A stretch of DNA of 64,000 nt, taken from positions 151,863 to 215,862 of the forward strand of contig CAZAOT010000001.1 of NCBI GenBank assembly GCA_964487045.1. Direction: 5' to 3'. Position numbers and translations under genes: made by a program. Shown one piece after another: positions 9,646 through 39,111 of this stretch. Source of the stretch: an uncultured Candidatus Saccharibacteria bacterium (GTDB lineage: Bacteria; Patescibacteriota; UBA1384; DTJR01). Each line of letters begins with the position of its first letter. The stretch's first letter is position 1. The notes beneath the pieces were generated by a model. That model did not search any database. It was not told where the DNA came from and worked only from the letters and a program-made list of their open reading frames with translations.

Positions 9646-10009
9646 CTATCAGACAGCAATCGCAGCGGTAGCCGCAGGGTCTCTCATTCTAGTCGCATTT
9701 GGTCTTCTCTGGGTATTGAGAGGTCGACGTCATCAAGAAGAGCTGACCTTGGCCATCTATGGCATCGCTGCTGGAATTCCGATAACGTTTGCTCTCTTCC
9801 TCTACTGGAAGATCACTCCTGACAATCACACGGTTGTGAACGCAATATGTAACATCTCGAGCTTTGCGGTCATTCTTTTTTCTATTCGCTACATGAGGCC
9901 GAGACGATCCCCGTCAAAGTGGCTTCATATAGTTGTTTGGATAGTGTTGACCATTGTGGTTTCAGCAATGTCCATCAACTTCTCGCAGCTTAAAATGGGC
10001 ACCAGCTAG
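9638..10009 (+). CDS. hypothetical small membrane protein (possible GTG start overlapping the previous stop)
   Basis: The track ORF 9497..10009 overlaps the previous ORF out of frame. GTG at 9638 overlaps the stop of 9019..9645 (..AGTGGGTAA..). There are about 4 TM helices. Confidence 0.3.
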   Translation: MGNYQTAIAAVAAGSLILVAFGLLWVLRGRRHQEELTLAIYGIAAGIPITFALFLYWKITPDNHTVVNAICNISSFAVILFSIRYMRPRRSPSKWLHIVVWIVLTIVVSAMSINFSQLKMGTS

Positions 10010-10070
10010 AAATAGCGAGGTGCCCATTCTTTTTTTGAAGAATCTTCCTTATTCTGCTAAAATTTACTTA

Positions 10071-12191
10071 ATGGCAAAGCGTGGAAGGAAACCAAAAAAT
10101 CCTAATGTTTTGGAGTCGGTAGATCCCAAGGTTATTAAGGAAGTCCTGGGGCTTCTTTTCGGGGCATTGGCGGTAATTATAATCCTTGCTGAGTTTGGGG
10201 CTGCCGGGAGTTTTGGCAAATCAATTTTTGAAAGCATCAAAACTTTCTTTGGTGTAGTTGCTTATGTTTTTGCCTTCTGGCTCGCTTTCGCCTCAGTAAT
10301 GTTTTTTGAACCCAATATTGTGAAGCGCGGCCGGGTTATTTTATGGGGAACATTTTTCTTTTTAATTTTCTTCAGTAGTTTGATCGCTCCATTTGGCCAA
10401 AGTGGCGGAGTGTTTGGTTCTACTCTTTTTTATTCGCTACAGCCTGCAATTGGTGATGCTGGGACATTTATCATTATGTTAGTTGGGGCAATCGGAATGC
10501 TTCTTTTGATCTCAAATGCATCACTTTCGGAAATTTTGAAAAAAATTGGCGCGTCAACGAGAAACGCTTATCCAAATGTTAACGTCGATCTTGGCGCTCA
10601 AAGAGTTTCGGTCTTCAAGGCTGTCAGAAGGAGAATTGGAATGGGCGGTAAACCTGCCGTAGTTGAGGCTCAAAAGCCGATTGCTCCGATGGACGGCAAC
10701 TGGGTTTTTCCTGAAACTGATCTTTTGGAGGATCAAAAATCAACTGCTCAACCTGGAAATGTTACCAAAAATGTTGAGATACTACTTAAAACATTAAATG
10801 ATTTTGGTGTTGAAGTGACAGCAGGCAAAATTAATGTTGGTCCGACCGTTACTCAGTATGAACTCAAACCTTCAGAGGGTGTGAAGCTTAATACTATCAA
10901 GGCCAGGGCTGATGATTTGGCTTTGGCACTTGCAGTTCATCCAGTCAGAGTTGAAGCTCCAATTCCGGGTAAGGCTGCGGTTGGCGTAGAAGTTCCAAAT
11001 AAGGAGGCGGCGAGAGTGAGTCTTCGTTCAGTTTTGGAAAGCGATACCTTCAAAAAACGAAAATCAAATACTTCGCTTCCGCTAGGACTCGATGTTGCTG
11101 GAGATATAATACTAGCCGACCTCAAGAAGATGCCTCATATGTTAGTTGCCGGAGCGACCGGTTCTGGTAAGTCAGTCGGACTAAACTCGATGATCCTTTC
11201 TCTTTTGTATCAGAACTCGCCGCGCGACCTAAGACTCCTCTTAGTTGATCCAAAACGAGTTGAATTTACTGCTTACAATGGAATTCCGCATTTGCTTACC
11301 CCAGTTGTCGTTGATGTAGATAAGACCGTCAATTTACTTCGCTGGGCGGTGACGGAGATGGAGCGCCGATTTAAATTATTTCAGGAAGTAGGTTCTAGAG
11401 ATATCGAATCTTATAATGAAAAGGTGGGGAAGGGTCATAAATCAGAAAATGGTAATAATCATGAAAAAATCCCTTATATTGTGCTTGTGATTGATGAGTT
11501 AGCCGATCTGATGGCTCAGGCCTCTAATGAAGTTGAAGCGGCAATTGTCAGATTGGCTCAGCTGGCTAGGGCAACCGGCATGCATTTAATTGTTGCTACG
11601 CAGCGCCCGAGTGTTGATGTTATCACCGGATTGATTAAAGCTAACATTACCTCTAGGGTCGCTTTTGCGGTTGCATCACAAATCGACTCACGTACTATTA
11701 TCGACCAGTCTGGTGCAGAAAAGCTTATGGGAAATGGAGACATGTTGTTTCTCGGTGGGGAGTTTAGTAAGCCAAAGCGTCTTCAGGGTGCATTTATATC
11801 TGAAAAAGATGTTAAAAGTGTTTGTGACTTCTTGAGAAGCGAAGGCTCGGCTATTTATGACACTTCAATTACTGATTATCGTGAGGTTGCTGGAATCAAA
11901 AGTTCTAAGCGCGGTGGCTCAGGTGGTGGTATGGAAGGATCTGATGCAATTCTAAAAGAAGCTATCCAGCTAGTTGTGGAAAGTGGCACAGCTTCAGCTT
12001 CGTTCCTGCAAAGGCGACTTAGCGTCGGTTATGCCAGAGCGGCAAGACTTCTAGATTTGATGGAAGAACAAGGTGTAATTGGGCCGCCACAGGGCGCAAA
12101 ACCAAGAGATATACTTATAAGCTCATTGGACGAGATCTCTGAAGAGCCTCCTTCGTCAAAGGATAATGGTTTCGATGAGCGTGACTTTTAA
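10071..12191 (+). CDS. ftsK: DNA translocase FtsK/SpoIIIE (N-terminal TM domain, motor domain, gamma winged-helix)
   Basis: Walker A GATGSGKS, the motor domain, and a C-terminal gamma domain (ASFLQRRLSVGYARAARLLDLMEEQGVIGP). Start set at MAKRGRKPK, not the upstream out-of-context Met of the track ORF. Confidence 0.9.
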   Translation: MAKRGRKPKNPNVLESVDPKVIKEVLGLLFGALAVIIILAEFGAAGSFGKSIFESIKTFFGVVAYVFAFWLAFASVMFFEPNIVKRGRVILWGTFFFLIFFSSLIAPFGQSGGVFGSTLFYSLQPAIGDAGTFIIMLVGAIGMLLLISNASLSEILKKIGASTRNAYPNVNVDLGAQRVSVFKAVRRRIGMGGKPAVVEAQKPIAPMDGNWVFPETDLLEDQKSTAQPGNVTKNVEILLKTLNDFGVEVTAGKINVGPTVTQYELKPSEGVKLNTIKARADDLALALAVHPVRVEAPIPGKAAVGVEVPNKEAARVSLRSVLESDTFKKRKSNTSLPLGLDVAGDIILADLKKMPHMLVAGATGSGKSVGLNSMILSLLYQNSPRDLRLLLVDPKRVEFTAYNGIPHLLTPVVVDVDKTVNLLRWAVTEMERRFKLFQEVGSRDIESYNEKVGKGHKSENGNNHEKIPYIVLVIDELADLMAQASNEVEAAIVRLAQLARATGMHLIVATQRPSVDVITGLIKANITSRVAFAVASQIDSRTIIDQSGAEKLMGNGDMLFLGGEFSKPKRLQGAFISEKDVKSVCDFLRSEGSAIYDTSITDYREVAGIKSSKRGGSGGGMEGSDAILKEAIQLVVESGTASASFLQRRLSVGYARAARLLDLMEEQGVIGPPQGAKPRDILISSLDEISEEPPSSKDNGFDERDF

Positions 12192-28299: not shown

Positions 28300-28357
28300 T
28301 ATTCCTCGGTACCTGCCCGCCAGAGCCTACGGCTCAGCCGTTGGCAGGCGGGGCTCA
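28300..28357 (+). repeat. tRNA-derived fragment: 12-nt copy of the intron-tRNA 5' end (TATTCCTCGGTA) fused to CCTGCCCG from its 3' region, plus a GC hairpin
   Basis: 28300-28311 is identical to 28636-28647. 28312-28319 is identical to tRNA positions 28893-28900. The fragment abuts the ATG of the GIY-YIG gene directly. Confidence 0.45.
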
Positions 28358-28627
28358 ATGATTTATGATGAAATTGTGAGTAAATTTTGGTTCACTTATG
28401 TTTTGAGAAGCAGGGCCGACAACAAACTTTACTTCGGTTTTACAGAAAATTTGAAAGTTCGCATACGGTTACACAACACAGGCAACGTCCCTGCAACAAA
28501 GAATAGATTGCCTCTTGAATTGATATATTTTGAAGCTTGTCTGAATAAAGATCAAGCGATTAAAAGAGAAAAGTATTTTAAAACTGGGTTCGGGAGAAAT
28601 TTTCTTAATAACAGGATTCAGAGTTGA
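28358..28627 (+). CDS. GIY-YIG nuclease family protein (small YhbQ/UPF0213-like)
   Basis: FWFTYVLRSRADNKLYFGFTENLKVRIRLHN carries the GIY...YIG spacing and a conserved Arg/His. 89 aa. Confidence 0.8.
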   Translation: MIYDEIVSKFWFTYVLRSRADNKLYFGFTENLKVRIRLHNTGNVPATKNRLPLELIYFEACLNKDQAIKREKYFKTGFGRNFLNNRIQS

Positions 28628-28638
28628 CAAATTAGTAT

Positions 28639-28908
28639 TCCTCGGTAGCTCAATGGCAGAGCGGGTGCCTGTGAACCTTAAACGCAGCTTTCCGTCAAAA
28701 GGCGGATTGAAACTTCTTGGGATAACGGTGAAGGCTAAGTCGAAAGATATGCTAATACCGTGGGAACTCCAATTTGGAGAGCGCCGTAGAGACTAGATAC
28801 CAAGATGCCTAAATCGAAAGATATGGCAAAGATATAGTCCACGCCACTAGAAATAGTGGATTAAGTGTAAGCACTAGGTTGCAGGTTCGAGTCCTGCCCG
28901 AGGAGCCA
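28639..28908 (+). tRNA. tRNA gene split in the anticodon loop by a ~195-nt group I intron; isotype unresolved (anticodon region reads CT..TGTAA/GTTAA, so Thr or Asn are candidates)
   Basis: Acceptor TCCTCGG pairs with CCGAGGA, followed by G and CCA. D-arm GCTC-AATGGCA-GAGC. T-arm GCAGG-TTCGAGT-CCTGC. Anticodon stem halves GGTGC (28665-69) and GCACT (28871-75) are separated by the intron. Confidence 0.75.
28674..28868 (+). ncRNA. group I intron (approximate boundaries) inside the tRNA anticodon loop
   Basis: It contains the S element AAGATATAGTCC (exact consensus) and the R/P7 element AGAGACTAGATAC, which gives the P7 pair GACTA/TAGTC. There is P4-like pairing AAAGGCGG / GAGCGCCG. No ORF inside. 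Confidence 0.65.
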
Positions 28909-29160
28909 TGAAAATACTCAAGCAAATTGCTTGAGTTTTTTCATAACTTGGGAAAAGGACTCGATACCTGAGTGCGCAATGCGACGTTCATATAAAAAAC
29001 TATTGTCGCATAGGTTTCCTGCCCGAGGAGCCAAAAGAAAACAGATCACGTAAGTGGTCTTTTTTCTTTTGATTTTTGGGAAAAGGACTCGAACCAGATG
29101 CGAAGTCCTGCTTGCCACTCCGTAGCTTAATAGCGAAGGGTGGCCCGAGGAGCCATGAAA
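28909..29160 (+). repeat. two further tandem copies of the tRNA 3' end (CCTGCCCGAGGAGCCA at 29018 and 29143), each preceded by an inverted T-arm copy and hairpins
   Basis: The unit is TGGGAAAAGGACTCGA(T/A)..., where GGACTCGAACC is the reverse complement of the T-arm GGTTCGAGTCC. GAGCCATGAAAATA is repeated after two copies. Hairpin terminators at 28917-28945. Confidence 0.55.
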
Positions 29161-29241
29161 ATAATTACTATTCTAACCAGTCAGTTGATTGTTTATATGG
29201 CTGGAAAATGGTATTTTATAAGTAATAAATAGATTGAATAA

Positions 29242-31485
29242 ATGGTAGATAACCTCGAGAGCAAAGAGTTCGTTATTAAGTTGCCCCAGCATACTAATTT
29301 TGAGATTAGAGTTTTTGCAGAATTTCTCAAAACTCTTTCTAAAATTTTCAAAAATATTCCTTTTGCAGTATCGCTTAACATGATTAATAAAAGGATATTT
29401 TTTACAGTTAAGGTTCCAGCCAGATATCAATCGGTTATGGAGAACCAGCTTTACGCGGTTTTTCCCAAGATCGAACTCGAAGAGATATCAAGAACTTTTG
29501 ATCCTCAGAACGCTGAAGTTGCGGCTCAGGCTGATCTACGACTGCGATATGGCGACCATTATCCTTTTCAGACGTTTGAGAGCTTGGAGGGGTCGTTTCT
29601 ATCTGACATCTACAACCAGTTTAACAGGCTTACTGCTCAGGAAAAATTCTTTATGCAGCTTAAGATCAAGCCTCTAGATCAAGACAAGGCAATTTTTACG
29701 CTGAAACGTTCAGTTGACTTAAATGTTAAAAACTTCAGGCAGAGGCTAAATGTCGTCGAAGGAATATTTTCCAAAAAGGCTTCTCCAGAGATTCGGGCGA
29801 GGGGAATGTCGGCTGCACAGGAGAAAAATCGCCAGCCACTTTATTTGACCGAGATTGATATCTTATTGTTTTCAGAAAGTTATGAACTAGCTGCAGCAAA
29901 GTTGGAGCCTATTGCTCAAGTTTTCCAGAAACTAGAGAGTGAGTACAACGAATTTAAATACAAAATTAGGACTGTTTCAGTTGCCGATTTTGATCGAATT
30001 ACCTCACTGGAAATTCCAGCAACTGCTTTTCATATGAGCTCAGACGAAGTATCTACGATTTATCATTTTCCACCAGACTCTGACTCGGTTCCAAACCTTT
30101 ATAAAATTCTTTCCCCTAAAGCTGAGCCACCGCTTGGACTTCCGACTGTGGATAACACATCGGCTGATGAGCTTTGTCCCTTTGCTCAAACCAACTATCG
30201 TAACATCAAGGAAAGTTTTGGTATCAAGCGCCGGGATCGACAAAGACATATGTATATCATTGGTAAGTCTGGAGTTGGTAAGTCTAAACTTCAAGAATTA
30301 ATTATCAAAAATGATATCGAAAAAGGTCATGGTATTTGCGTAATTGACCCTCACGGAGACCTGATCGAAAACATTATTCCATTTATTCCGGAAAACAGAA
30401 TTAAAGACGTAATTTTCTTTAATCCAGTTGACGAAGCTTTTCCAATTTCTTTCAACCCGATTGAAAAAGTAAACCCACTTCTTCGTCAGCAGGTTGCCAC
30501 TGGGCTTATAGAAATTTTTAAGAAAGTCTTCGGAGCGAACTGGACACCAAGGCTTGAGCACGTTCTTCGTATGACCCTGCTTGCCCTTCTCGATGCCCCA
30601 AAGGCTTCGATTATGAGCGTTCTTCTTCTTCTAACCGATAGAGAATATAGGCAGGAAGTTATTAAAAGTATTGAGGACCAAGTGGTTAAGAACTTCTGGA
30701 CAAATGAATTTGCTGGTTGGAGCGAGAAGTTCGACTCGGAAGCAATCATGCCTATCCTAAACAAAATCGGTCAATTTGTTTCAAACACTATTATTCGTAA
30801 CATTGTCGGTCAGGAAGATAATAAGATTGTAATGCCTGACATTATGGATAATCGCAAAATTTTACTTGTTAAGCTGCCAAAAGGTATTCTGGGCGAAGAG
30901 AACACTTCACTGCTTGGATCTATGATTATTACTAAGATTTATCAGGCGGCCTTGGCCAGAGCTGATGTGCCTGAGAATCAGCGTGTACCTTTCTACCTAT
31001 ATGTGGACGAGTTCCAAAATTTCGCAACTGATTCTTTTGCCAACATCCTCTCTGAAGCCCGAAAATATAAATTATCGCTTACTATGGCGCATCAATATGT
31101 CTCGCAGCTAAACGATGTAGTTAAGAAAACGGTTTTTGGTAATGTCGGATCGATTTTGTCGTTTAGAATTGGTCCGGAAGATGCACTTTTGATGGAGAAA
31201 GAATTTGAGCCGAACTTTACTGCTCAAGATATTGTAAACCTTGGTGTCCGTGAAATTTATTTGAAACTTTCCATCGACGATGAAGTAAAAGAATCATTCT
31301 CGGCAAAAACCTTGGCAGTTCCAGAGCCTACTTTCAATTTCAGGGAACAAATAGTACAATTCTCGCGTGAAAACTATTGTCGAAATAAGGAAGTAGCGGA
31401 GAAAGAATTGAAGCAAGAGAAATCAAAAGAAATGGAAGTTCTCGAAAAGCTCAAGGAAGAAAATTTCTCTGCACCGATTTTGTAA
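29242..31485 (+). CDS. soluble P-loop ATPase of the TrwB/TraD/VirD4 (type IV coupling protein, AAA10/TraG-D_C-like) superfamily; no TM segments
   Basis: MYIIGKSGVGKSKLQELI...GHGICVIDPHGDLIEN...DVIFFNPVD parallels the T4CP Walker A / 'VIDPxGD' / 'NPxD' block. Later YLYVDEFQNF is a Walker B-like motif, then LTMAHQ. The N-terminal ~330 aa is of unknown fold. Confidence 0.5.
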   Translation: MVDNLESKEFVIKLPQHTNFEIRVFAEFLKTLSKIFKNIPFAVSLNMINKRIFFTVKVPARYQSVMENQLYAVFPKIELEEISRTFDPQNAEVAAQADLRLRYGDHYPFQTFESLEGSFLSDIYNQFNRLTAQEKFFMQLKIKPLDQDKAIFTLKRSVDLNVKNFRQRLNVVEGIFSKKASPEIRARGMSAAQEKNRQPLYLTEIDILLFSESYELAAAKLEPIAQVFQKLESEYNEFKYKIRTVSVADFDRITSLEIPATAFHMSSDEVSTIYHFPPDSDSVPNLYKILSPKAEPPLGLPTVDNTSADELCPFAQTNYRNIKESFGIKRRDRQRHMYIIGKSGVGKSKLQELIIKNDIEKGHGICVIDPHGDLIENIIPFIPENRIKDVIFFNPVDEAFPISFNPIEKVNPLLRQQVATGLIEIFKKVFGANWTPRLEHVLRMTLLALLDAPKASIMSVLLLLTDREYRQEVIKSIEDQVVKNFWTNEFAGWSEKFDSEAIMPILNKIGQFVSNTIIRNIVGQEDNKIVMPDIMDNRKILLVKLPKGILGEENTSLLGSMIITKIYQAALARADVPENQRVPFYLYVDEFQNFATDSFANILSEARKYKLSLTMAHQYVSQLNDVVKKTVFGNVGSILSFRIGPEDALLMEKEFEPNFTAQDIVNLGVREIYLKLSIDDEVKESFSAKTLAVPEPTFNFREQIVQFSRENYCRNKEVAEKELKQEKSKEMEVLEKLKEENFSAPIL

Positions 31486-31502
31486 TAATATATGGAGTAT
31501 AA

Positions 31503-33224
31503 ATGGCACAAGATATAACTTGCAAACAATGTCAGGCTAGATTTGAAGCTACCGACGATGATATCGCGTTTTTGGATAAAATTTCCCCCGTGCTTGATGG
31601 AAAAAAGTATCTGATTTCTACGCCAAAACTTTGTCATGAGTGTAGGCAAATTCGCCGCTATTCATGGAGAAATGAAAGACACCTTTATAAAAGAACTTGT
31701 GATCTTACCGGCGAGCCTATTATTTCGATCTTCTCACCGGATAAGCCATTCAAGGTTTATTCAAACAAAGCTTTTCAGTCAGATGGATGGGATCCACTCG
31801 AATATGGTCGCGAATTTGATTTTAATAGGCCATTTTTTGAGCAATTTAGAGAGCTTCTGGAAGCTGTTCCACGCCAAGCCAATAGCTCAATTTTTAATGA
31901 GAATTGTGATTATTGTAATCAGGCATGGCACTCAAAAGATTCGTACATGTCCTTCAATCTAGGATATGGAGAAAGATGTTTTTACTCAAATGAATCTTTC
32001 TATGTGAAAGATTGTGTCGATACCTTTGATATCAGGCATTGTGAATTTTCTTACTCACTATACGATTGTGATAATTGCAATTCGTGTTCATTTCTTGAAA
32101 ACTGCAAAGATTGCTCAGAGAGTCATTTTTCTTATGACTCGGCTGGTTGTCAAAACATAATTCTGTCGAATGGTCTAAAAAATAAGCAATATTACATTCG
32201 AAACGAAAGTTTTTCCAAGGAAGATTACTTTGAGAAGCTGAAAGAATTAAAAATGTACACCCACTCTGGTCAAGCCGAACTTAAAAAAGAATATGAAGAG
32301 TTAAAGAAAAATGCGATTCACCGGGCAAATCATAATTTGAAGAGTGAAAATTGTACCGGTGACTACATAATCGAATCAAAAAATTGCAGGCAGTGTTTTA
32401 ATATCTTTAAGAGCGAAAACTGTGTGAGAATAGGAAATATCGATGATGCTGGTAGAGACTCAAGAGATATGAATTACACTGCCGAGATGGAACTATGCTA
32501 TGAAGGAGCTTCAATCGCTGGTTACAAAAATATCTTCGGTGTGTTTATGGCATATGGAGAAAATAATTATTACTGCAACTTCTGCGAATACTGCAAAAAT
32601 TGTTTCGGATGTGTCGGTTTGAGGCGAAAAGAGTACTGCATTTTTAATAAGCAATATACCAAAGAAGAATACGAGCAATTATTCGCTAAAATAATTGAAA
32701 AAATGCAAGAAACGGGTGAGTGGGGCGAATTTTTTCCTATCTCAATATCCCAAGTAGCTTACAACGAATCAGTCGCTCAAGATTATGCTCCAAAAACCAA
32801 AGAGGAGGTAGAAGCTATAGGCGGTTATTGGCAAGACAACTTCTACGAGAGTGAATTTACTGGGGAAACTTACGAGCCCAAGGACGATATACATGAATAC
32901 ACAAACAATGAGGAAGAGACCAAGAAGCTACTTGCTGGGGTAATTAAATGTGAGAAGTCTGGCAAACCATTTAAAATTTTGCCACAAGAATTTTTATTTT
33001 ATATCAAGAACAACATTCCAATTCCAACGGTTCATTATAGTGAAAGATTCAAGGAATTATTCAGACTGAGAAACCCACGAAAACTTTTCGAGCGACAATG
33101 CGATTGCGATCGTAATGGACATGGTCATGAAAGCCGCTGTCCGAACAAATTCGAAACGACCTATTCTCCAGATAGGGAGGAACAGGTATACTGTGAGCAG
33201 TGTTACCAAGCGAGCATTTTATAA
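31503..33224 (+). CDS. Cys-rich protein, paralog A (573 aa; N- and C-terminal zinc-ribbon-like modules, two internal C-x2-C repeat halves)
   Basis: 17 nt after the ATPase stop. About 40 Cys. N-terminal CKQC..(27)..CHEC. The motif YCNFCEYCKNCFGCVGLRRKEYCIFNKQYTKEEY. C-terminal C..C/H..C..C cluster. Confidence 0.7.
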   Translation: MAQDITCKQCQARFEATDDDIAFLDKISPVLDGKKYLISTPKLCHECRQIRRYSWRNERHLYKRTCDLTGEPIISIFSPDKPFKVYSNKAFQSDGWDPLEYGREFDFNRPFFEQFRELLEAVPRQANSSIFNENCDYCNQAWHSKDSYMSFNLGYGERCFYSNESFYVKDCVDTFDIRHCEFSYSLYDCDNCNSCSFLENCKDCSESHFSYDSAGCQNIILSNGLKNKQYYIRNESFSKEDYFEKLKELKMYTHSGQAELKKEYEELKKNAIHRANHNLKSENCTGDYIIESKNCRQCFNIFKSENCVRIGNIDDAGRDSRDMNYTAEMELCYEGASIAGYKNIFGVFMAYGENNYYCNFCEYCKNCFGCVGLRRKEYCIFNKQYTKEEYEQLFAKIIEKMQETGEWGEFFPISISQVAYNESVAQDYAPKTKEEVEAIGGYWQDNFYESEFTGETYEPKDDIHEYTNNEEETKKLLAGVIKCEKSGKPFKILPQEFLFYIKNNIPIPTVHYSERFKELFRLRNPRKLFERQCDCDRNGHGHESRCPNKFETTYSPDREEQVYCEQCYQASIL

Positions 33225-33241
33225 TATAGCTAGGAGTTGAG

Positions 33242-34960
33242 GTGGAAAACAAAACGTGTAAGCAATGCAGCGCTGATTTCGTGGTAGTGGATGAGGATCT
33301 TGAATTCTACAAAAAAATGTCCCCGACATTTAATGGAAAAGTCTATGATTTACCGGCTCCCGATTTTTGTCCTGATTGCCGAGATAGTCGAAGGTTGTCA
33401 TTTAGAAACGAGAGATCGCTTTATAACCGCAAATGTGACAAGACAGGAAAGCAAATAGTATCTATCTATTCTCCTGATAAAACCGATTATAAAGTTTTTG
33501 AAATTGCCGAGTGGTATAAGGATGACTGGGACGCCATGGAGTACGGTCGCGACTTTGACTTTAATAAACCATTTTTTGAACAATTCGATCAGTTGATGAA
33601 AGATGTCCCTAGACTTTCTTTATTCAATACAAATACCGAAAATTGCGAATATGCGAATTTTGTTGAGGGTGTTAAGAATTGCTATATGACAATGGTGACA
33701 TACTATGGCACAGAAAATTCACATTTTTGCTACAGAACCTACCGCTCAAAAGATAATTTAGACATCAATTTTGCCGAAGAACTGCAGAAGTGTTATGAGT
33801 GTGTGTTTACTACAAAGTCGTATAATTGCCGATACGGAATTAGATTAAATAATTGCCGGGATTGTGCTTTTTCAGTTGATCTAACAGGATGCAATGACTG
33901 CTTCATGTGTTCCAATCTAAGCAGGAAACAATACTGCATTAGGAATAATCAACTGACAAGAGAAGAGTATGATCGACAAATGGCCGAATACGATCTAGGA
34001 TCATTTGAAACTGTTGAAAAATTAAAAAATGAATTTGAACAATTGAGAATTGATTCGCCGGTTAAGTTTGCAAACCTGACAAACTGTGAAGACTGTATCG
34101 GTGACGATATGCATGACTGTAAAAATGTGAAGTATGGCTTTAATACTTTCGAGTCTGAGAACTGCAAATATATTATGGGCGAGAAGGCAAAGAATGTGAT
34201 GGATAGCCGAGGAGGAGGGTATGAATGGTGCTATGAATGCAACCATACTGGACTAGGGGCAAATCATATTATGTTCGCAAGCGGAGTAATCGGCGGCTAC
34301 AACATGACCTATTGCGAGACCTGCCATGGTTGCCATGATTGCTTTGGCTGTGTGGGACTTAGAAAGAAAGAATACTGCATTTTTAACAAGCAATATACTA
34401 AAGAGGAATACGAAAAAAAGGTTGCTGAAATTATTGAAAAAATGCAAGCAGATGGCGAGTGGGGACAGTTTTTCCCAAATGGTACCAGCCCCTTCGGCTA
34501 CAACGAAACAATCGGAAACAGACTTTTACCGCTAACTCGCGAAGAAGCCATTAAGCGTGGTTTTAAGTGGCAAGAAAAAGAATTTGATATTGAATTCAGT
34601 GGGGAATTTTATACTCCAGCGGATAATATAGCCGATTATGCTGATGAATCAAAACAAAAAGAACTTCTTACTGCCGTGTTAAAATGTTCAGATTCAGGCA
34701 AGCCATACAGGATAATGCCGCAAGAACTAGCTTTTTATCTAGACAATAAAATTCCTGTTCCGAGAAAGCATTTTGAAACGAGATATGGCGATCGTCTAAA
34801 ATTAGAGTTTGTTCGAAAAATTCATGATAGGCAGTGTATGTGCGAGGAGCCGGGGCATGGTCATGAGGGCAGATGTCAGGAAAAATTTGGAACAACTTAT
34901 GGACCTGATAGACCGGATAAGGTGTACTGCGAGAAGTGTTATCAAAGTATTGTTAAATAA
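33242..34960 (+). CDS. Cys-rich protein, paralog B (572 aa)
   Basis: Collinear with A and C: CKQC..CPDC, RNERSLYNRKCDKTG, YCETCHGCHDCFGCVGLRKKEYCIFNKQYTKEEY, C-terminal HGHEGRC..YCEKCYQ. Confidence 0.7.
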   Translation: MENKTCKQCSADFVVVDEDLEFYKKMSPTFNGKVYDLPAPDFCPDCRDSRRLSFRNERSLYNRKCDKTGKQIVSIYSPDKTDYKVFEIAEWYKDDWDAMEYGRDFDFNKPFFEQFDQLMKDVPRLSLFNTNTENCEYANFVEGVKNCYMTMVTYYGTENSHFCYRTYRSKDNLDINFAEELQKCYECVFTTKSYNCRYGIRLNNCRDCAFSVDLTGCNDCFMCSNLSRKQYCIRNNQLTREEYDRQMAEYDLGSFETVEKLKNEFEQLRIDSPVKFANLTNCEDCIGDDMHDCKNVKYGFNTFESENCKYIMGEKAKNVMDSRGGGYEWCYECNHTGLGANHIMFASGVIGGYNMTYCETCHGCHDCFGCVGLRKKEYCIFNKQYTKEEYEKKVAEIIEKMQADGEWGQFFPNGTSPFGYNETIGNRLLPLTREEAIKRGFKWQEKEFDIEFSGEFYTPADNIADYADESKQKELLTAVLKCSDSGKPYRIMPQELAFYLDNKIPVPRKHFETRYGDRLKLEFVRKIHDRQCMCEEPGHGHEGRCQEKFGTTYGPDRPDKVYCEKCYQSIVK

Positions 34961-34972
34961 GGGAGTTGAAAA

Positions 34973-36673
34973 ATGTCAGAGCAGAAACATTGTAAAGTAT
35001 GTGCTAAACAATTTACAGTTGAAGATGAGGACCTAGAGTTCTACAAAAAAATGTCACCGACTTTCGCGGGCGAGACCTTTGAATGGCCAGCGCCGACTCA
35101 TTGTCCCGATTGTCGAGCGGCAAGACGCCAAGTCTGGAGGAACGAAAGACATTTATATAAAAGAAAATCCGATAAATCAGGCCGAGATATCGTATCAATT
35201 TACCCACCAGAAAGAGCTGATTACAAAGTATTTGCTATCGATGAGTGGTGGGCGGATGACTGGGATGGCACGCAATATGGAATCGACTGGGATCCAAGCA
35301 AACCCTTTTTCGAGCAATTTGAGCAGCTTCTAAAGACCGTTCCTCGCCAAGCACTCTATAACACGAAGACTGAGGCTTGTGAATTCTCAAATTACATTGC
35401 CGAATGCAAGAACTGTTATATGACGACAGTCACTTTCTATAAAACAGAGAATACACATTATTCATATTTCGCCTATCAGTCAAAAGACAATGTGGACATA
35501 AGCTTCTGTAATGAATCAGAACTGGGTTATGAGCTTGTCGATGGAAATAAATGTTTTAACTGCCGATATTCCAATCGTCTAGAGAACTGTCGAAATTGCT
35601 ACTTCTCCCAAGACCTAATTGGCTGTAGCGACTGTATCTTATGTGACAATTTGCGAAACAAGCAATACTGCATTGAGAACGAGCAGTTAACTCAAGAAGA
35701 ATATCAGAAGAGATTAAGCAAAATGAACTTCGGTTCTAAGAAATTTGTTGATGAATGCCTCGCAAAGTACGAAGCGATGCGCTCAAACAGCATTGTAAAA
35801 TTTGTAAACACAGTAAAATGCGAGAACTGCCAAGGCGACAACCTGAGAGAGTGCAAGAATGTTAAGAAAAGCTTTTCTTCGCTTAGAGTTGAAAACTCGC
35901 GTTACTGCCTTGATCAGGAAGACGGCAAGAATATCTGGGATTCGGAGGGGGGCACTTATGAGTGGGCTATTGAAGTTAACCATACTGGGTTTGGACAGAC
36001 TTTCGTAGTCAACTCGAGCGTATTTTACTGTAACTTCATGTATTACTGTGAGAGCTGTTATAGCTGTCGGGACTGCTTTGGTTGTGTGGGGCTAAGGAAT
36101 AAGCAATATCATATATTTAACAAAGAGTATTCCAAAGAGGAATATGAAAAAAAGGTTGCTGAGATAATTGCCAAAATGCAAGAAACAGGTGAGTGGGGAG
36201 AGTATTTTCCATTTTCACTTTCGCCCTTTGGCTATAACGAAACCTTGGCTTATGATCATTTCCCGAAAACCAAAGAGGAAGTATTGGCGATGGGGTGTAA
36301 ATGGCAAGAGGATGATCATTCGCTTCAATATAGTGGTCCGTTTTATGAACCAGATGATGACATAAAGGTTTATCAATCAGATGAGAATAAAGCCAATGAA
36401 CTTTTGCAGGGAATCCTGAAGTGTGAAAAAAGCGGTAAGCCGTTTAAGATTATGCCTCAAGAACTGGCATTCTATCTGAAAAGCGGAATTCCAATTCCTC
36501 GCAAGCATTATGATGTCCGGTTCTATGAGAGGTTTAATGTCAGAAACCCCAAGCACTTTTATCATAGAAAATGTATGAACGAGGGATGCGGCAATGAGTT
36601 TGAAACAACTTATGCACCGGAAAGAAGCGAAAAGGTCTATTGCGAGGAGTGTTATCAGAAGAATGTTGGCTAG
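34973..36673 (+). CDS. Cys-rich protein, paralog C (566 aa)
   Basis: Collinear with A and B: CKVC..CPDC, RNERHLYKRKSDKSG, YCESCYSCRDCFGCVGLRNKQYHIFNKEYSKEEY. Confidence 0.7.
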   Translation: MSEQKHCKVCAKQFTVEDEDLEFYKKMSPTFAGETFEWPAPTHCPDCRAARRQVWRNERHLYKRKSDKSGRDIVSIYPPERADYKVFAIDEWWADDWDGTQYGIDWDPSKPFFEQFEQLLKTVPRQALYNTKTEACEFSNYIAECKNCYMTTVTFYKTENTHYSYFAYQSKDNVDISFCNESELGYELVDGNKCFNCRYSNRLENCRNCYFSQDLIGCSDCILCDNLRNKQYCIENEQLTQEEYQKRLSKMNFGSKKFVDECLAKYEAMRSNSIVKFVNTVKCENCQGDNLRECKNVKKSFSSLRVENSRYCLDQEDGKNIWDSEGGTYEWAIEVNHTGFGQTFVVNSSVFYCNFMYYCESCYSCRDCFGCVGLRNKQYHIFNKEYSKEEYEKKVAEIIAKMQETGEWGEYFPFSLSPFGYNETLAYDHFPKTKEEVLAMGCKWQEDDHSLQYSGPFYEPDDDIKVYQSDENKANELLQGILKCEKSGKPFKIMPQELAFYLKSGIPIPRKHYDVRFYERFNVRNPKHFYHRKCMNEGCGNEFETTYAPERSEKVYCEECYQKNVG

Positions 36674-36692
36674 AAAGTTCTAAAGGCTGAAA

Positions 36693-36728
36693 AACAAACG
36701 GCTCATGAGTGAGCCGTTTGTTTTTTTT
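36693..36728 (+). terminator. strong rho-independent terminator closing the ATPase/Cys-rich operon
   Basis: AAACAAACGGCTCA-tgag-TGAGCCGTTTGTTTTTTTT. Confidence 0.7.
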
Positions 36729-36808
36729 AACTTAAACTATTTATATTTAGGCAGATTTCTGCTATTCTTTTGTGATCTTTGAAATCCAGGGAAGGGACTG
36801 AGGTAACT

Positions 36809-37270
36809 ATGCCCAAGAGGAAGCAACCGAACTTTCGCAAGGCGCTTCAGCTGATGCTTAGCTACATCTTTGAGCACCAGTTGGTGGTCAATGATGTGGT
36901 GTTTATGCTCTCGACCGATGTAATGCTCAAGAATCCTCTGATCGTGCAGACGCTTGAAGAAGCAGGGTGCATTGAGCGTCTTGGTAGGCTGTCTCTCACA
37001 ACCCAGGCCAAGTTCAACAGAGCTTACCCTGGCTGCATGAGAGCAGTTCACGACAAGGCGCTCCAGAAGTTCCCGAAGATGAAGTGCCCATGGGGACATT
37101 GGATTTGGGTCGTTAATACGACCCGTTATGACCAGATGAATCCACATCTTCTGCTGTCTCGTCCGCTCCTTGAGCAAGTCGAAAGGCTCTATGGTAAGGA
37201 CACGCAGGTTAGAGCTGTTGACGAAGAAGATCGTCCGACGGACGAGAAGCCATGGCGGGCTGAGCCGTAG
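36809..37270 (+). CDS. hypothetical protein (GC-rich island)
   Basis: 153-aa ORF, ~55% GC. The RBS-like GGGAAGGGACTGAGG precedes its ATG. The antisense ORF 36737..37177 is judged spurious. Confidence 0.4.
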   Translation: MPKRKQPNFRKALQLMLSYIFEHQLVVNDVVFMLSTDVMLKNPLIVQTLEEAGCIERLGRLSLTTQAKFNRAYPGCMRAVHDKALQKFPKMKCPWGHWIWVVNTTRYDQMNPHLLLSRPLLEQVERLYGKDTQVRAVDEEDRPTDEKPWRAEP

Positions 37271-37400
37271 AAGCTAAGAGAAGATCGCACAGGCGCCCGA
37301 AGCAAGATGCGTTGCATCATGCGCAGGGCGCCTTTCCTGTTGCAAAAATCTTAAAATAGTTTAACAATACATCTACTACGCGGGCAAAGGAGGCTCAGGC

Positions 37401-37493
37401 ATGTATTACAAGCCAGTCGTTAGCCGGACTCTCGTGCACCATGAGTGGACGGCTGCGATCCTGGACAATTTGGTCCCACCTCTGCCACCGTAG
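37401..37493 (+). CDS. possible 30-aa peptide ORF (GC-rich, strong RBS AAAGGAGG)
   Basis: ATG 8 nt after AAAGGAGG. Very weak otherwise. Confidence 0.15.
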   Translation: MYYKPVVSRTLVHHEWTAAILDNLVPPLPP

Positions 37494-37533
37494 ATGGGCC
37501 ATAGGCCCACCGGGGAGCCTTGCTCCTCAAAAA

Positions 37534-37560
37534 GGCGCCCCGTCACTGCGGCGGGGCGCC
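37534..37560. terminator. GC hairpin terminator (bidirectional)
   Basis: GGCGCCCCG-n9-CGGGGCGCC followed by TTCTCTCTTT. Confidence 0.45.
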
Positions 37561-37585
37561 TTCTCTCTTTAATCTTATCTAGTTT

Positions 37586-38194
37586 CTATTTGGCTACTTC
37601 ACTAATAGTGATCGATGCTGTCTTTGCTGTTGAGTCGGTTGAGAACAATACTTCCCAATCAACATGTGCCATTTCTGTAGTTCTGACGTTGTCAGTGTTT
37701 AGCTGCTCCTTGGTCACAAAGCCGGCTCTTTGAAGATCCTTCTGATATTTTTCATAAGCATCAGAATCAACCTGTTCAAATGTGATTGTCCAGCCCGCAG
37801 GCTCTGTGGTTGCAAGTGATCCCGTGACATTACCATAGGTAAATTTTGGTACTACACTCGGTGTGCTATCTGGCCATTTTGATGATCCAAGCTCCACACT
37901 TCCGTCCTCTCCGGTCACTTTGACAGAGTTGTCACTCGAATTTATATCAACTTTTCCGCCTGTTGCGGCTCCGATAAGACTTTCTGCACCCTTTTCAGCA
38001 ATCTTGCCAGCGAAGTATTTTGTTGCGATATAACTACCAATTCCTAGTACCGCTAAAATTATAACTATTATAATAATTGCAGTGGTGCAGCCCTTATTTC
38101 CACCACCTGAACTTTGCGATGAACTAGTGCTAGATGACGCAGCTGGTTTAGCAGGTTCTGCTTTTGGTTGCTCGGTCTTAATTTCTTCAGCCAT
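37586..38194 (-). CDS. membrane-anchored extracytoplasmic protein of unknown function
   Basis: N-terminal Ser/Ala-rich linker, a single TM (IIIIVIILAVLGIGSYIA), and a ~130-aa domain. Confidence 0.55.
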   Translation of the reverse strand: MAEEIKTEQPKAEPAKPAASSSTSSSQSSGGGNKGCTTAIIIIVIILAVLGIGSYIATKYFAGKIAEKGAESLIGAATGGKVDINSSDNSVKVTGEDGSVELGSSKWPDSTPSVVPKFTYGNVTGSLATTEPAGWTITFEQVDSDAYEKYQKDLQRAGFVTKEQLNTDNVRTTEMAHVDWEVLFSTDSTAKTASITISEVAK

Positions 38195-38436: not shown

Positions 38437-38757
38437 AAGAGTGACTAGTTTTCCACAGGCAAGCGTGACCAACCCGAACAAACTTACATAACTTAACTTC
38501 GATATAGAGTAAGTTATATAACATTTTGATAATCTATATAACATATTTGACAAGTCGCACGCTTGATGGTTCTATGGATTTACATTAAATAAGTGTGAGA
38601 TGGGTAAGCGCGGTTAAATACCGTCACAGTCCCGCTACCGTAAAGTCGGAAAACCACTCATACATTCATCCCGAGGAGGAATTATGCAGCATACTTAGGT
38701 GTTTTTTAACTAGCTCAAAAGAGCTTTTTTTAGTCTCTTAAAAATATAAGGAGTAAA

Positions 38758-39111
38758 ATGAAGAAAATTAGAATTATACTTATCGCGTTATCTATCTTGG
38801 TCTTTCCAGTATTTCTAGCAGGCTGTCAGAATACAGCTAATCCTACGCTGCAAACGAGTGTTGCGCCTAGCACAGAAGTAACTTATTCTGGCGTAGAGGG
38901 TAAAACGGTTTACGAATTGCTTAAGGATTCACATCAAGTCGAGGCTGATGAGTCTTCTATGGGAGTTTTGGTCAAATCAATTGATGGCGTAAGCCAAACT
39001 GACAAGGAGTTTTGGCTATACGATATCAACGGTCAGCAGTCTAATCTTGGAGCGGACAAGCAGGCGACGAAAGATGGCGATGTTGTTCACTGGCAATTAA
39101 AAGGCTTCTAA
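38758..39111 (+). CDS. lipoprotein (signal peptide + lipobox LAGC), unknown function
   Basis: MKKIRIILIALSILVFPVFLAGCQN. Confidence 0.55.
   Translation: MKKIRIILIALSILVFPVFLAGCQNTANPTLQTSVAPSTEVTYSGVEGKTVYELLKDSHQVEADESSMGVLVKSIDGVSQTDKEFWLYDINGQQSNLGADKQATKDGDVVHWQLKGF

What the first reader, a model, noticed from the sequence alone, without database searches (positions are those of the whole stretch)
29242..36728. Tight operon: soluble TrwB/VirD4-like coupling-type ATPase followed by three tandem paralogous ~570-aa cysteine-rich proteins
Four same-strand genes are separated by only 12-17 nt and closed by a strong terminator at 36693. A tRNA-centred repeat region lies directly upstream. The first product has the T4CP-type P-loop block (GKSGVGKS ... 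VIDPHGD ... NPVD ... VDEFQNF ... HQ) but no membrane anchor. It is followed by three paralogs (573, 572 and 566 aa; collinear end to end) that have no signal peptide or TM and about 40 Cys each. I do not recognise this protein family or this gene combination. The location (tRNA with repeat-flanked insertions, GIY-YIG gene, intron) suggests cargo of a decayed integrative or conjugative element, or a defence or toxin module. The four proteins are clearly meant to be co-expressed.
Basis: partly seen in the sequence, partly recalled or inferred. Interest (0 to 1): 0.85.

Follow-up and report, generated by a model that had tools for sequence, protein, structure and literature searches.

The report
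Soluble coupling ATPase plus cysteine-ladder proteins
In an ultra-small (CPR/Patescibacteria) bacterium, a four-gene operon pairs an anchor-less relative of the conjugation 'coupling' motor with three old copies of an undescribed protein (a cysteine-packed beta-solenoid capped by zinc fingers); the same pairing recurs across many related genomes, which gives these bacteria's unexplained orphan coupling ATPases their first concrete candidate partner.

Summary
Four same-strand genes are separated by 17, 17 and 12 nt, each has a Shine-Dalgarno site, and a strong terminator closes the block. Gene 1 is a soluble VirD4/TrwB-type ATPase with a 310-aa N-terminal alpha/beta domain (DUF8128) in place of a membrane anchor. 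Genes 2-4 are 41-54% identical paralogs of a large family with no Pfam model (5,516 clusters at 50% identity). Their predicted architecture is an invariant Cys4 zinc ribbon at each end and two 12-residue-period beta-solenoid blocks whose cores are cysteine ladders.

The island/cargo interpretation fails. GC content is native. The tRNA-derived repeats lie only upstream. A relative with 73% ATPase identity keeps the same DnaG-RpoD-antiporter-GIY-YIG-tRNA-ATPase-3xCys order.

The pairing is conserved. 40 of 51 informative ATPase loci from Berkelbacteria, Peregrinibacteria and Gracilibacteria carry 1-11 solenoid genes within 10 kb, and 31 are directly adjacent. It also appears in rearranged, split and two-ATPase versions. 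The family also forms ATPase-free arrays, often next to a TrmB regulator.

Best reading: a vertically inherited CPR module in which the ATPase acts on the solenoid proteins as dedicated clients. Export is favoured but not shown. Function is untested, and I found no description in the searchable literature.

The parts
29242..30171 (+). ATPase gene, N-terminal soluble alpha/beta domain (aa 1 to about 310). It corresponds to Pfam DUF8128 in homologues and replaces the membrane anchor of classical coupling proteins.
   Evidence: AF2 model, pLDDT about 90, mixed beta-alpha elements. Homologues carry PF26449 (DUF8128) in precomputed Pfam. No hydrophobic segment. The domain is shared with Bacillus phage G gp156 and phrog_5156.
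30172..31485 (+). ATPase gene, VirD4/TrwB-type nucleotide-binding domain. Walker A is GKSGVGKS and Walker B is YVDEFQ. A helical (all-alpha) insertion spans about aa 412-535.
31503..33224 (+). Cys-ladder solenoid paralog 1 (573 aa, 33 Cys).
   Evidence: profile score 835 bits, positions 1-572.
33242..34960 (+). Cys-ladder solenoid paralog 2 (572 aa, 35 Cys, GTG start preceded by AGGAG).
34973..36673 (+). Cys-ladder solenoid paralog 3 (566 aa, 33 Cys). This is the copy that was modelled. N-terminal Cys4 zinc ribbon aa 1-60 (34973-35152). Solenoid block 1 about aa 126-240 (35348-35692). Solenoid block 2 about aa 273-385 (35789-36127). C-terminal domain with Cys4 zinc ribbon aa 530-566 (36560-36670).
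   Evidence: AF2 pLDDT 87.9, pTM 0.88. Invariant C7/C10/C44/C47 and C484/C534/C539/C557/C560. 12-residue Cys periodicity.
36689..36730 (+). Intrinsic terminator closing the operon.
   Evidence: 17-bp stem, 4-nt loop, U-tail; -26.6 kcal/mol, z = -6.5.
28639..28908 (+). Context, not part of the module: a tRNA (anticodon GUG or UGU, depending on the splice junction) interrupted by a group I intron.

Best explanation
This is a vertically inherited, CPR-specific two-family module, not island cargo. Gene 1 encodes a soluble, catalytically intact ATPase of the VirD4/TrwB (type IV coupling protein) branch of the FtsK-HerA superfamily, presumably hexameric. It corresponds to the 'orphan T4CP' that is common in Patescibacteria and usually not linked to virB4. 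Genes 2-4 encode old, diverged paralogs of a novel protein. Each has an invariant Cys4 zinc ribbon at each end, with basic flanks, and two narrow beta-solenoid blocks with 12 residues per coil. The many cysteines in those blocks are core-packing ladder residues, not metal clusters or obligatory disulfides.

Shown here: the anatomy, co-transcription, conservation of the pairing in four different gene arrangements, and native chromosomal status.

Inferred: the solenoid proteins are the ATPase's dedicated clients. The ATPase's highly conserved all-alpha insertion, which is the substrate-recognition module in classical coupling proteins, would bind a conserved part of the solenoid proteins. ATP hydrolysis would then load, remodel or thread them.

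The most likely outcome, and the least certain step, is hand-over to an envelope translocon for display or delivery to the host cell, by analogy with coupling-protein genes that sit next to the gene of their substrate. The multi-copy arrays would then be a repertoire of cargo variants expressed under their own (often TrmB-type) regulators.
For: Operon structure.

ATPase identity and intact catalytic motifs.

Pairing from the ATPase side. The scan found 455 relatives in GTDB species genomes, and the best 80 loci were kept. 53 of 80 loci hold the Cys-rich family within 10 kb. Among 51 loci with at least 2.5 kb on both sides, 40 hold it and 31 have it directly adjacent on the same strand. A 20-kb span is about 2% of a roughly 1-Mb CPR genome, so chance predicts only a few per cent (my estimate).

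Pairing from the solenoid side. 12 of 45 loci of at least 12 kb hold the ATPase, against roughly 1 expected.

The pairing survives rearrangement. ATPase then array in Berkelbacteria-like genomes; array then ATPase in Peregrinibacteria and Gracilibacteria. Two divergent ATPase paralogs interleaved with solenoid genes occur in L130, L150, L162, L164 and L165. A split form has solenoid-only and zinc-ribbon-only genes abutting or overlapping the ATPase stop codon in L023, L030, L034, L044, L047, L052 and L086.

No other family is conserved around the ATPase.

Native status.

The paralogs are old. Median identity within a locus is 43%, and 88 of 97 copies have their nearest relative in another genome.

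Only the terminal Cys are invariant. Solenoid Cys swap with Ser or Leu/Ile/Val and co-vary only at +12.

Literature. 5,713 VirD4-like T4CPs were found in 2,918 Patescibacteria genomes, only 148 near virB4, and the authors say exaptation 'cannot be ruled out'. The same paper notes that coupling-protein genes often sit next to the relaxase (substrate) gene (PMC12102498).
Against: No direct evidence of a physical interaction; a multimer prediction could not be run.

Most solenoid loci have no ATPase nearby (33 of 45). 11 of 51 informative ATPase loci have no solenoid gene within 10 kb. Adjacency is therefore frequent but not obligatory.

Against export specifically. The ATPase has no membrane anchor. 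No channel, VirB4 or relaxase family turned up in the window ORFs that were scanned, and no third family is conserved around the ATPase in the 80 loci. The solenoid proteins have no signal peptide. They carry invariant zinc ribbons next to Arg/Lys-rich stretches, which is more typical of intracellular nucleic-acid binders. They are well conserved along their whole length (mean column identity 54%), unlike fast-evolving effectors. According to PMC12102498, the t4cp of Ca. Southlakia epibionticum was not essential for epibiotic growth whereas other T4SS genes were.
Confidence: 0.45

Rival explanations
1. An intracellular nucleic-acid-handling machine. The ATPase works as a DNA (or RNA) translocase, as TrwB, FtsK and HerA do. 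The solenoid proteins are rigid adaptors whose two terminal zinc ribbons with basic flanks bind nucleic acid, for example for processing imported DNA or organising the chromosome. Nothing is exported.
Against: Overall pI is acidic (5.3-5.5). No nuclease, helicase or known DNA-binding fold was found beyond small zinc ribbons. It does not explain why tiny genomes keep up to 11 or more diverged copies in one array.
Confidence: 0.22
2. The linkage is regulatory or historical only. The solenoid family has its own function (structural or cytoskeletal polymer, storage or another role) that does not depend on the ATPase.
Against: Adjacency to a single gene family at 60-78% of informative loci, preserved through four different arrangements and with a second, divergent ATPase subfamily, is hard to explain without a functional tie. 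Start and stop codons overlap or abut in the split variant.
Confidence: 0.18
3. An anti-phage or conflict module of the HerA/DptH-type 'ATPase plus effector' kind.
Against: The PADLOC hits cover only the generic P-loop core, and the paralogs hit nothing. No effector fold was found. Gene order is shared with relative L009, and the pairing recurs across several CPR lineages, instead of the patchy, island-like spread typical of defence genes. The solenoid family is absent from the phage and viral collections.
Confidence: 0.08
4. One reading: cargo of a decayed integrative or conjugative element inserted at the tRNA.
For: An intron-bearing tRNA with triplicated 3' ends, inverted T-arm fragments and a GIY-YIG ORF lies directly upstream. 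The ATPase belongs to a conjugation-associated family.
Against: The repeats do not bracket the block. GC content is native. The Pfam scans of the flanking ORFs and of larger ORFs elsewhere in the window returned no integrase or relaxase family. Gene order is conserved in L009 at 73% ATPase identity, and a tRNA also lies upstream in L008, L001/L020 and L018.
Confidence: 0.03

Closest known systems
Type IV coupling proteins (VirD4 / TrwB / TraD; Pfam T4SS-DNA_transf, TrwB_AAD_bind)
   Different: No N-terminal membrane anchor; it has a 310-aa soluble DUF8128 domain instead. No relaxase, VirB4 or channel family was found in the scanned window ORFs, and no third family is conserved around the ATPase. 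NCBIfam T4CP models score far below their cut-offs (54 against 250 bits). From my own knowledge, not tested here: the pIP501 coupling protein TraJ also lacks a TM domain and is thought to be membrane-recruited by a partner, so solubility alone does not exclude T4CP function.
Orphan VirD4-like T4CPs of Patescibacteria (PMC12102498)
   Same: Probably the same population of genes: VirD4-like, abundant in Patescibacteria, and usually not near virB4. Sources name the homologues 'type IV secretion system DNA-binding domain-containing protein'.
   Different: That study reports no partner or function. The conserved linkage to the solenoid family is not mentioned in the passages I read there or in any paper my searches retrieved.
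Bacillus phage G gp156 / 0305phi8-36 ORF201 / SPO1 gp27.4 (phrog_5156)
   Same: Near full-length homology including part of the N-terminal domain: phrog_5156 7.7e-69; gp156 is 26% identical over 84% of the query.
   Different: The phage copies are of unknown function. gp156 follows a VirB4-like gene. No solenoid-family gene was found in any phage or viral collection.
HerA-family ATPase plus partner systems (HerA-NurA, HerA-Sir2, HerA-DUF4297, DptH of DndFGH)
   Different: The partner here has no nuclease or NADase fold. Sequence-level affinity is to VirD4/TraD, not HerA. The module is chromosomal and syntenic, not island-like.
Narrow Cys-ladder beta-solenoids such as Tenebrio molitor antifreeze protein (1ezg)
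Type VII secretion EssC/EccC ATPase with downstream arrays of substrate genes
   Different: There are no WXG/LXG-type small helical substrates, and no membrane components are adjacent. The clients here are large (about 570 aa) and well conserved.

Membership tests
Type IV coupling protein (VirD4/TrwB/TraD) | FtsK-HerA-type P-loop NBD with Walker A/B, recognisable by the family profiles | tested here: met
Type IV coupling protein (VirD4/TrwB/TraD) | All-alpha domain inserted in the NBD | tested here: met
   Seven helices at aa 412-522 between core strands in the AF2 model. The TrwB_AAD_bind hit spans aa 329-626. This region holds the most conserved motif of the family, VKNFWTNEFAGWSEKFDSEAIMPILNK.
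Type IV coupling protein (VirD4/TrwB/TraD) | N-terminal transmembrane anchor | tested here: not met
   There is no hydrophobic N-terminal segment. aa 1-310 form a confidently modelled soluble alpha/beta domain.
Type IV coupling protein (VirD4/TrwB/TraD) | Genetic linkage to a T4SS (virB4, channel) and/or a relaxase | tested here: not met
   The Pfam scans of 24 of the window's ORFs returned no VirB4, relaxase or channel family. No third conserved family is found around 80 homologous loci. A T4SS elsewhere in the genome could not be checked.
Type IV coupling protein (VirD4/TrwB/TraD) | NCBIfam equivalog-level score for a named T4CP family | tested here: not met
   The best hit, CD1115-family VirD4-like, scores 54 bits against a cut-off of 250. 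TraD models score 38-49 bits against 366-648.
HerA-type ATPase plus effector (HerA-NurA or defence systems) | Partner protein with a nuclease, Sir2 or other effector fold | tested here: not met
HerA-type ATPase plus effector (HerA-NurA or defence systems) | Recognition by curated defence-system profiles | tested here: inconclusive
   PADLOC mad8 2.5e-12 over the NBD. The HerA models reach only about 1e-6 with no stretch that passes on its own.
Integrative/conjugative element or tRNA-linked genomic island | Direct repeats (att) bracketing the cargo, plus an integrase | tested here: not met
   The three copies of the tRNA 3' end all lie at 28897-29155, upstream of the block; there is none downstream. 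The Pfam scans of the ORFs flanking the block returned no integrase family.
Integrative/conjugative element or tRNA-linked genomic island | Atypical composition and absence from the same site in relatives | tested here: not met
   GC is 0.37-0.41 inside the block and 0.37-0.42 in most of the window. Gene order is the same in L009.
Treble-clef zinc fingers zf_Tbcl (PF13451) / zf_Tbcl_2 (PF23477) / CxxC-x17-CxxC (TIGR04272) | Profile match above cut-off with two CxxC knuckles | tested here: inconclusive
   The hits are sub-threshold: 16-20 bits against cut-offs of 24-36. However, the four N-terminal and four C-terminal cysteines are invariant in 104 sequences and are lost together when lost (r = 0.85).
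TmAFP-like disulfide-laddered beta-solenoid | 12-residue coils | tested here: met
   Cys spacings are multiples of 3 with a 12-residue ladder: profile columns 135, 147 ... 231. Covariation peaks at +12. DSSP shows a 6-residue strand period.
TmAFP-like disulfide-laddered beta-solenoid | Paired cross-core cysteines (i, i+6) and secretion signal | tested here: not met
   i/i+6 Cys presence is anti-correlated (r -0.38 to -0.58). No signal peptide.

The most novel reading that the evidence does not exclude
The DUF8128-type soluble coupling ATPase and the zinc-ribbon-capped Cys-ladder solenoid family together make up a previously unrecognised, CPR-specific protein translocation or assembly system. 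A T4CP-derived motor, detached from the classical T4SS gene cluster, would be dedicated to exporting or assembling a multi-paralog set of solenoid proteins, which take several per cent of some roughly 1-Mb genomes. These would build or arm the contact structure that episymbiotic cells use on their hosts.
Probability: 0.2. Interest if true: 0.85.

Novelty: new variant of a known kind. Interest (0 to 1): 0.68.

Why it matters
Patescibacteria/CPR make up a large share of bacterial diversity and live mostly as episymbionts, yet most of their lineage-specific genes have no known function. A 2025 survey counted thousands of VirD4-like coupling proteins that are not linked to any T4SS and could only suggest that they may have been exapted (PMC12102498).

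This finding gives that orphan ATPase a specific, testable partner. The partner is a family of about 570-aa proteins with more than 5,500 clusters at 50% identity and no Pfam model. It has a confident but unprecedented predicted architecture, and one array alone can hold 11 or more copies. In genomes of about 1,000 genes, that is a large investment in a protein nobody has studied.

If the ATPase-client relation holds, it would define a new use of the conjugation coupling motor. It would also point to a major, unstudied component of CPR cell biology or host interaction. If it does not hold, the solenoid family still deserves a family definition and structural work.

Tried and rejected

2. Metal-cluster or nanowire idea (CxxC every 12 residues forming Cys4 sites). 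Rejected: solenoid cysteines are only 35-99% conserved, are replaced by Ser or Leu/Ile/Val, and CxxC partners do not co-vary (r about 0).

3. Disulfide-ladder idea, as in TmAFP. Rejected as an obligatory feature: i/i+6 positions are anti-correlated.

4. Phage or viral origin of the paralogs. No hit in 50,697 phage records or in IMG/VR.

5. Identity with the published 'cysteine-rich proteins' of Peribacteria. Those are a different set: 580-3,860 aa, mostly with signal peptides, with pappalysin- or Myxococcus-repeat-like similarity.

6. A search for a third conserved component around the ATPase found none. Around the arrays, only a TrmB regulator recurs.

7. The single long family member, P0367 (808 aa), was checked for an informative fusion. 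Its extra C-terminal 250 aa look like read-through and are uninformative.

8. Literature searches for DUF8128, and for CPR combined with cysteine-rich, VirD4, treble clef or beta-helix, found no description of the family or the pairing.

9. ARAGORN and Rfam-tRNA miss the upstream tRNA because of its intron. This was resolved with Rfam at an E-value threshold and by in-silico splicing.

10. The consensus terminator scan did not list the operon terminator. Folding confirmed it.

Full report
**1. The observation**

The gaps are 17, 17 and 12 nt, and each downstream gene has a GGAG-type ribosome-binding site 6-9 nt before its start. A 17-bp hairpin with a U-tail at 36689-36730 folds at -26.6 kcal/mol with z = -6.5 against shuffles. 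The consensus terminator scan did not list it.

All the quoted ATPase motifs are present. None of the four proteins has a signal peptide or a credible membrane segment. The paralogs are acidic (pI 5.3-5.5) and hold 33, 35 and 33 cysteines, somewhat fewer than the 'about 40' reported.

The upstream 'tRNA-centred repeat region' is real, although ARAGORN and Rfam's tRNA model do not call it.
- A tRNA at 28639-28908 is split by a roughly 190-nt group I intron (RF00028, 47.3 bits, just under the gathering score of 50, E = 1e-10).
- Removing the intron in silico makes ARAGORN call a tRNA: His-GUG or Thr-UGU, depending on the junction.
- The tRNA 3' end CCCGAGGAGCCA occurs three times, against 0.14 expected.
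- The tRNA 5' end is duplicated on either side of an 89-aa GIY-YIG ORF.

**2. The ATPase**

Pfam places aa 325-636 in T4SS-DNA_transf, TrwB_AAD_bind, DUF87 and TraG-D_C, all above their gathering scores. NCBIfam's best models are VirD4-like and TraD families, but far below their equivalog cut-offs.

An AlphaFold2 model built on 44 homologues is confident (pLDDT 88). Its C-terminal half superposes about equally well on several relatives:

Walker A, Walker B and many other positions are invariant in the family. A seven-helix insertion (aa 412-522) corresponds to the all-alpha domain of coupling proteins and carries the family's most conserved motif.

The first 310 residues are a soluble alpha/beta domain, which homologues' precomputed Pfam annotation calls DUF8128. 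There is no membrane anchor. The housekeeping FtsK is a separate gene at 9954-12191.

Full-length relatives exist in large Bacillus phages. These are phrog_5156 (7.7e-69), phage G gp156 (26% identity over 84% of the query, next to a VirB4-like gene), 0305phi8-36 ORF201 and SPO1 gp27.4. All are of unknown function.

A 2025 survey of Patescibacteria found 5,713 VirD4-like T4CPs in 2,918 genomes, with only 148 near virB4. It noted that the t4cp of Ca. Southlakia epibionticum was not essential and that exaptation 'cannot be ruled out' (PMC12102498). The gene here very probably belongs to that orphan population.

**3. The paralogs**

The three proteins are collinear with one another over profile positions 1-572 and are 41, 42 and 54% identical.

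The family is large and uniform.
- The word-indexed search gave more than 6,600 hits. None of the 120 best hits listed carries a functional name, and only one of them has a Pfam annotation, PF13451.
- An exhaustive profile search of 1.84 billion representatives gave 5,516 clusters at E <= 1e-3 and 2,310 at E <= 1e-30.
- Nearly all of the best 150 are 540-600 aa long.

An AlphaFold2 model of paralog 3 built on 104 sequences is confident (pLDDT 87.9, pTM 0.88). It shows, in order:
- an N-terminal zinc ribbon (C7, C10, C44, C47);
- a small domain;
- two beta-solenoid blocks, each followed by the same LRxKxYCIxNKxYxxEEYE helix, which indicates an internal duplication;
- an alpha/beta C-terminal domain that ends in a second zinc ribbon (C534, C539, C557, C560, plus C484).

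Only these terminal cysteines are invariant across 104 sequences. In a 369-sequence alignment, C10 and C47 are lost together (r = 0.85), as expected for one metal site.

The solenoid cysteines behave differently. They are 35-99% conserved and are replaced by Ser or by Leu/Ile/Val. They form ladders with an exact 12-residue period (profile columns 135, 147 ... 231). They co-vary weakly, and only at +12. CxxC partners do not co-vary, and positions i and i+6 are anti-correlated. I conclude that they are core-packing ladder residues. They are neither a chain of metal sites nor obligatory disulfides.

**4. Is it island cargo?**

No.
- GC content of the block (0.37-0.41) is that of the window.
- The tRNA-derived repeats are all upstream and do not bracket the block.
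- The genes scanned on both sides are ordinary chromosomal genes: PNPase, RNase J, FtsK, pyruvate kinase, DnaG, RpoD, a Na/H antiporter, an HI0933-like flavoprotein and type IV pilus PilB/T/C. The Pfam scans of these ORFs returned no integrase or relaxase family. Nramp and glutamate dehydrogenase lie further downstream, as annotated in L003, a 100%-identical contig from the same organism.
- In L009, whose ATPase is 73% identical, the order is tRNA-Ser(GGA), DnaG, RpoD, antiporter, GIY-YIG, tRNA, ATPase, three solenoid genes. This is the same order as in the window.
- A tRNA also lies just upstream of the ATPase in L008, L001/L020 and L018.

**5. Is the pairing conserved?**

Yes, well above chance, but it is not obligatory.

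From the ATPase side. A scan of one genome per GTDB species with the ATPase alignment found 455 relatives. The best 80 loci were kept; their record titles name them Berkelbacteria, Peregrinibacteria/Peribacteria, Gracilibacteria, Abawacabacteria and unclassified Patescibacteria, plus a few labelled Saccharibacteria, WS2 or Oceanicoccus. Profile searches of their six-frame translations show the solenoid family within 10 kb in 53 of 80 loci. Among the 51 loci with at least 2.5 kb on both sides, 40 have it and 31 have it directly adjacent on the same strand. Arrays hold from 1 to about 11 copies. No other family is conserved around the ATPase.

From the solenoid side. 12 of 45 metagenomic loci of at least 12 kb contain the ATPase. 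With a 20-kb span in a roughly 1-Mb genome, chance would give about 2% (my estimate).

The pairing survives four different layouts:
- ATPase then array, in Berkelbacteria-like genomes, including this window and L001;
- array then ATPase, in Peregrinibacteria and Gracilibacteria;
- two divergent ATPase paralogs interleaved with solenoid genes, in L130, L150, L162, L164 and L165;
- a split form in which a solenoid-only gene (about 310 aa) and a zinc-ribbon-only gene (about 95 aa) abut or overlap the ATPase stop codon, in L023, L030, L034, L044, L047, L052 and L086.

The family also forms ATPase-free arrays.
- L089 holds 11 or more tandem copies.
- Six copies lie between an ABC transporter and GatCAB.
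- Three more lie in the same Berkelbacteria genome that has ATPase + 2.
- A solo copy sits between two TrmB genes.

A TrmB-family regulator (Pfam 2.8e-15) is the only other recurrent neighbour. There are 33 such genes in 29 of 160 loci. 27 lie within 300 nt of a solenoid gene and 31 are on the opposite strand. There is none in this window.

Copies within an array are old. Median identity within a locus is 43%, and 88 of 97 copies have their nearest relative in another genome. Some copies evolve faster than the ATPase: between the window and L009, paralogs 1 and 2 are 53% identical to their best matches, against 73% for the ATPase.

**6. Mechanism**

What is shown: a co-transcribed, native, conserved pairing of an intact VirD4/TrwB-type motor with a novel zinc-ribbon-capped Cys-ladder solenoid family.

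What I infer: the solenoid proteins are the ATPase's dedicated clients.

In conjugative systems the coupling-protein gene typically sits by the gene of its substrate, the relaxase (PMC12102498). There the all-alpha domain is the substrate-recognition module (established knowledge of TrwB/TraD). Here the gene next to the ATPase is the solenoid family, and the all-alpha insertion is the most conserved part of the ATPase.

I therefore favour a model in which the ATPase binds a conserved part of the solenoid proteins and uses ATP to load, remodel or thread them. Hand-over to an envelope translocon is the most likely outcome, but this step is unproven. Overall confidence in the client model is 0.45; the export step alone is lower.

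Points against export:
- the ATPase has no membrane anchor, and no channel genes lie nearby;
- the solenoid proteins carry invariant zinc ribbons with basic flanks;
- there is no signal peptide;
- conservation is good along the whole length.

From my own knowledge, not tested here: the pIP501 coupling protein TraJ is also soluble, so the lack of an anchor is not decisive.

The rivals are:
- an intracellular nucleic-acid-handling complex (0.22);
- a functionally independent solenoid family whose linkage to the ATPase is only regulatory or historical (0.18);
- a defence module (0.08);

**7. Novelty and verdict**

The ATPase is a soluble variant of a known family whose orphan status in Patescibacteria is already published. 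The solenoid family and its conserved linkage to that ATPase appear in no paper that my searches retrieved. The published 'cysteine-rich proteins' of Peribacteria are a different, larger set, most of them with predicted signal peptides.

I rate this a new variant of a known kind: a coupling-type ATPase with a new class of partner. There is a real chance, about 0.2, that it is a categorically new translocation or assembly system. Interest is 0.68. It makes the open question of what the orphan T4CPs of CPR bacteria do directly testable, and it flags a very large unstudied protein family. The function itself remains inferred.

Noticed in passing
window 28639-28908 (+): A tRNA gene is interrupted in or next to the anticodon loop by a roughly 190-nt group I intron (RF00028, 47.3 bits against a gathering score of 50, E = 1e-10). 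ARAGORN and Rfam-tRNA miss it. After in-silico splicing it reads as tRNA-His(GUG) or tRNA-Thr(UGU), depending on the exact junction.
   Followed up: partly
window 28300-28326 and 28636-28662, flanking ORF 28358-28627: The 5' end of the tRNA (TATTCCTCGGTA...) is duplicated on either side of an 89-aa GIY-YIG ORF, as if the nuclease gene had inserted beside the tRNA. A GIY-YIG gene also sits next to the tRNA upstream of the ATPase in relative L009.
   Followed up: partly
window 28892-29164: There are three copies of the tRNA 3' end (CCCGAGGAGCCA, spaced 125 and 122 nt). The first two are each followed by a hairpin or terminator. Two inverted T-arm fragments (TTGGGAAAAGGACTCGA at 28948 and 29076) lie between them. 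These look like scars of repeated events at the tRNA. None recurs downstream of the operon.
   Followed up: partly
window 36850-37750, ORF 36779-37270 (+): A GC-rich patch (0.50-0.54 against about 0.39) lies directly after the operon terminator. It holds a 153/163-aa ORF with no family hit. A 45%-identical homologue sits at the same position after the solenoid array in L008. It may be a foreign insert or an unrecognised fifth gene.
   Followed up: partly
window 38592-38664 (+): An AdoCbl-II (cobalamin) riboswitch (40.7 bits, above its gathering score) lies upstream of a DUF4430 gene (38758-39111). This suggests a B12-regulated uptake function for that gene.
   Followed up: no
loci L006, L024, L029, L043, L054, L055, L059, L065, L067, L073, L079, L083, L085, L102-L159: A TrmB-family transcription regulator of about 260 aa is a recurrent neighbour of solenoid arrays. 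There are 33 such genes in 29 of 160 loci. 31 are on the opposite strand, and 27 lie within 300 nt of a solenoid gene. There is none in this window.
   Followed up: partly
L130, L150, L162, L164, L165 (metagenome contigs): These variant clusters hold two divergent ATPase paralogs. They match only the NBD half of the profile, so their N-terminal regions differ. The ATPase genes are interleaved with pairs or quartets of solenoid genes.
   Followed up: partly
L089 (ENA ERZ27250635 k141_658356, 324,955-bp contig): At least 11 tandem solenoid-family genes lie in one 19-kb run, followed by two DUF2079 membrane-protein genes. No ATPase lies within 10 kb.
   Followed up: no
L088 (Bacillus phage G, JN638751.1 89194-93336): The phage homologue of the ATPase (gp156) directly follows a gene annotated as VirB-like type IV secretory pathway protein (gp155). 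This VirB4-like/VirD4-like pair in a jumbo phage has no known role.
   Followed up: no
L097 (Ga0074195_1000011): Under the standard genetic code, the ATPase and about nine solenoid genes appear only as many short fragments. This suggests a genome that reads UGA as a sense codon (code 25), so the module also exists in recoded Gracilibacteria or Absconditabacteria.
   Followed up: no
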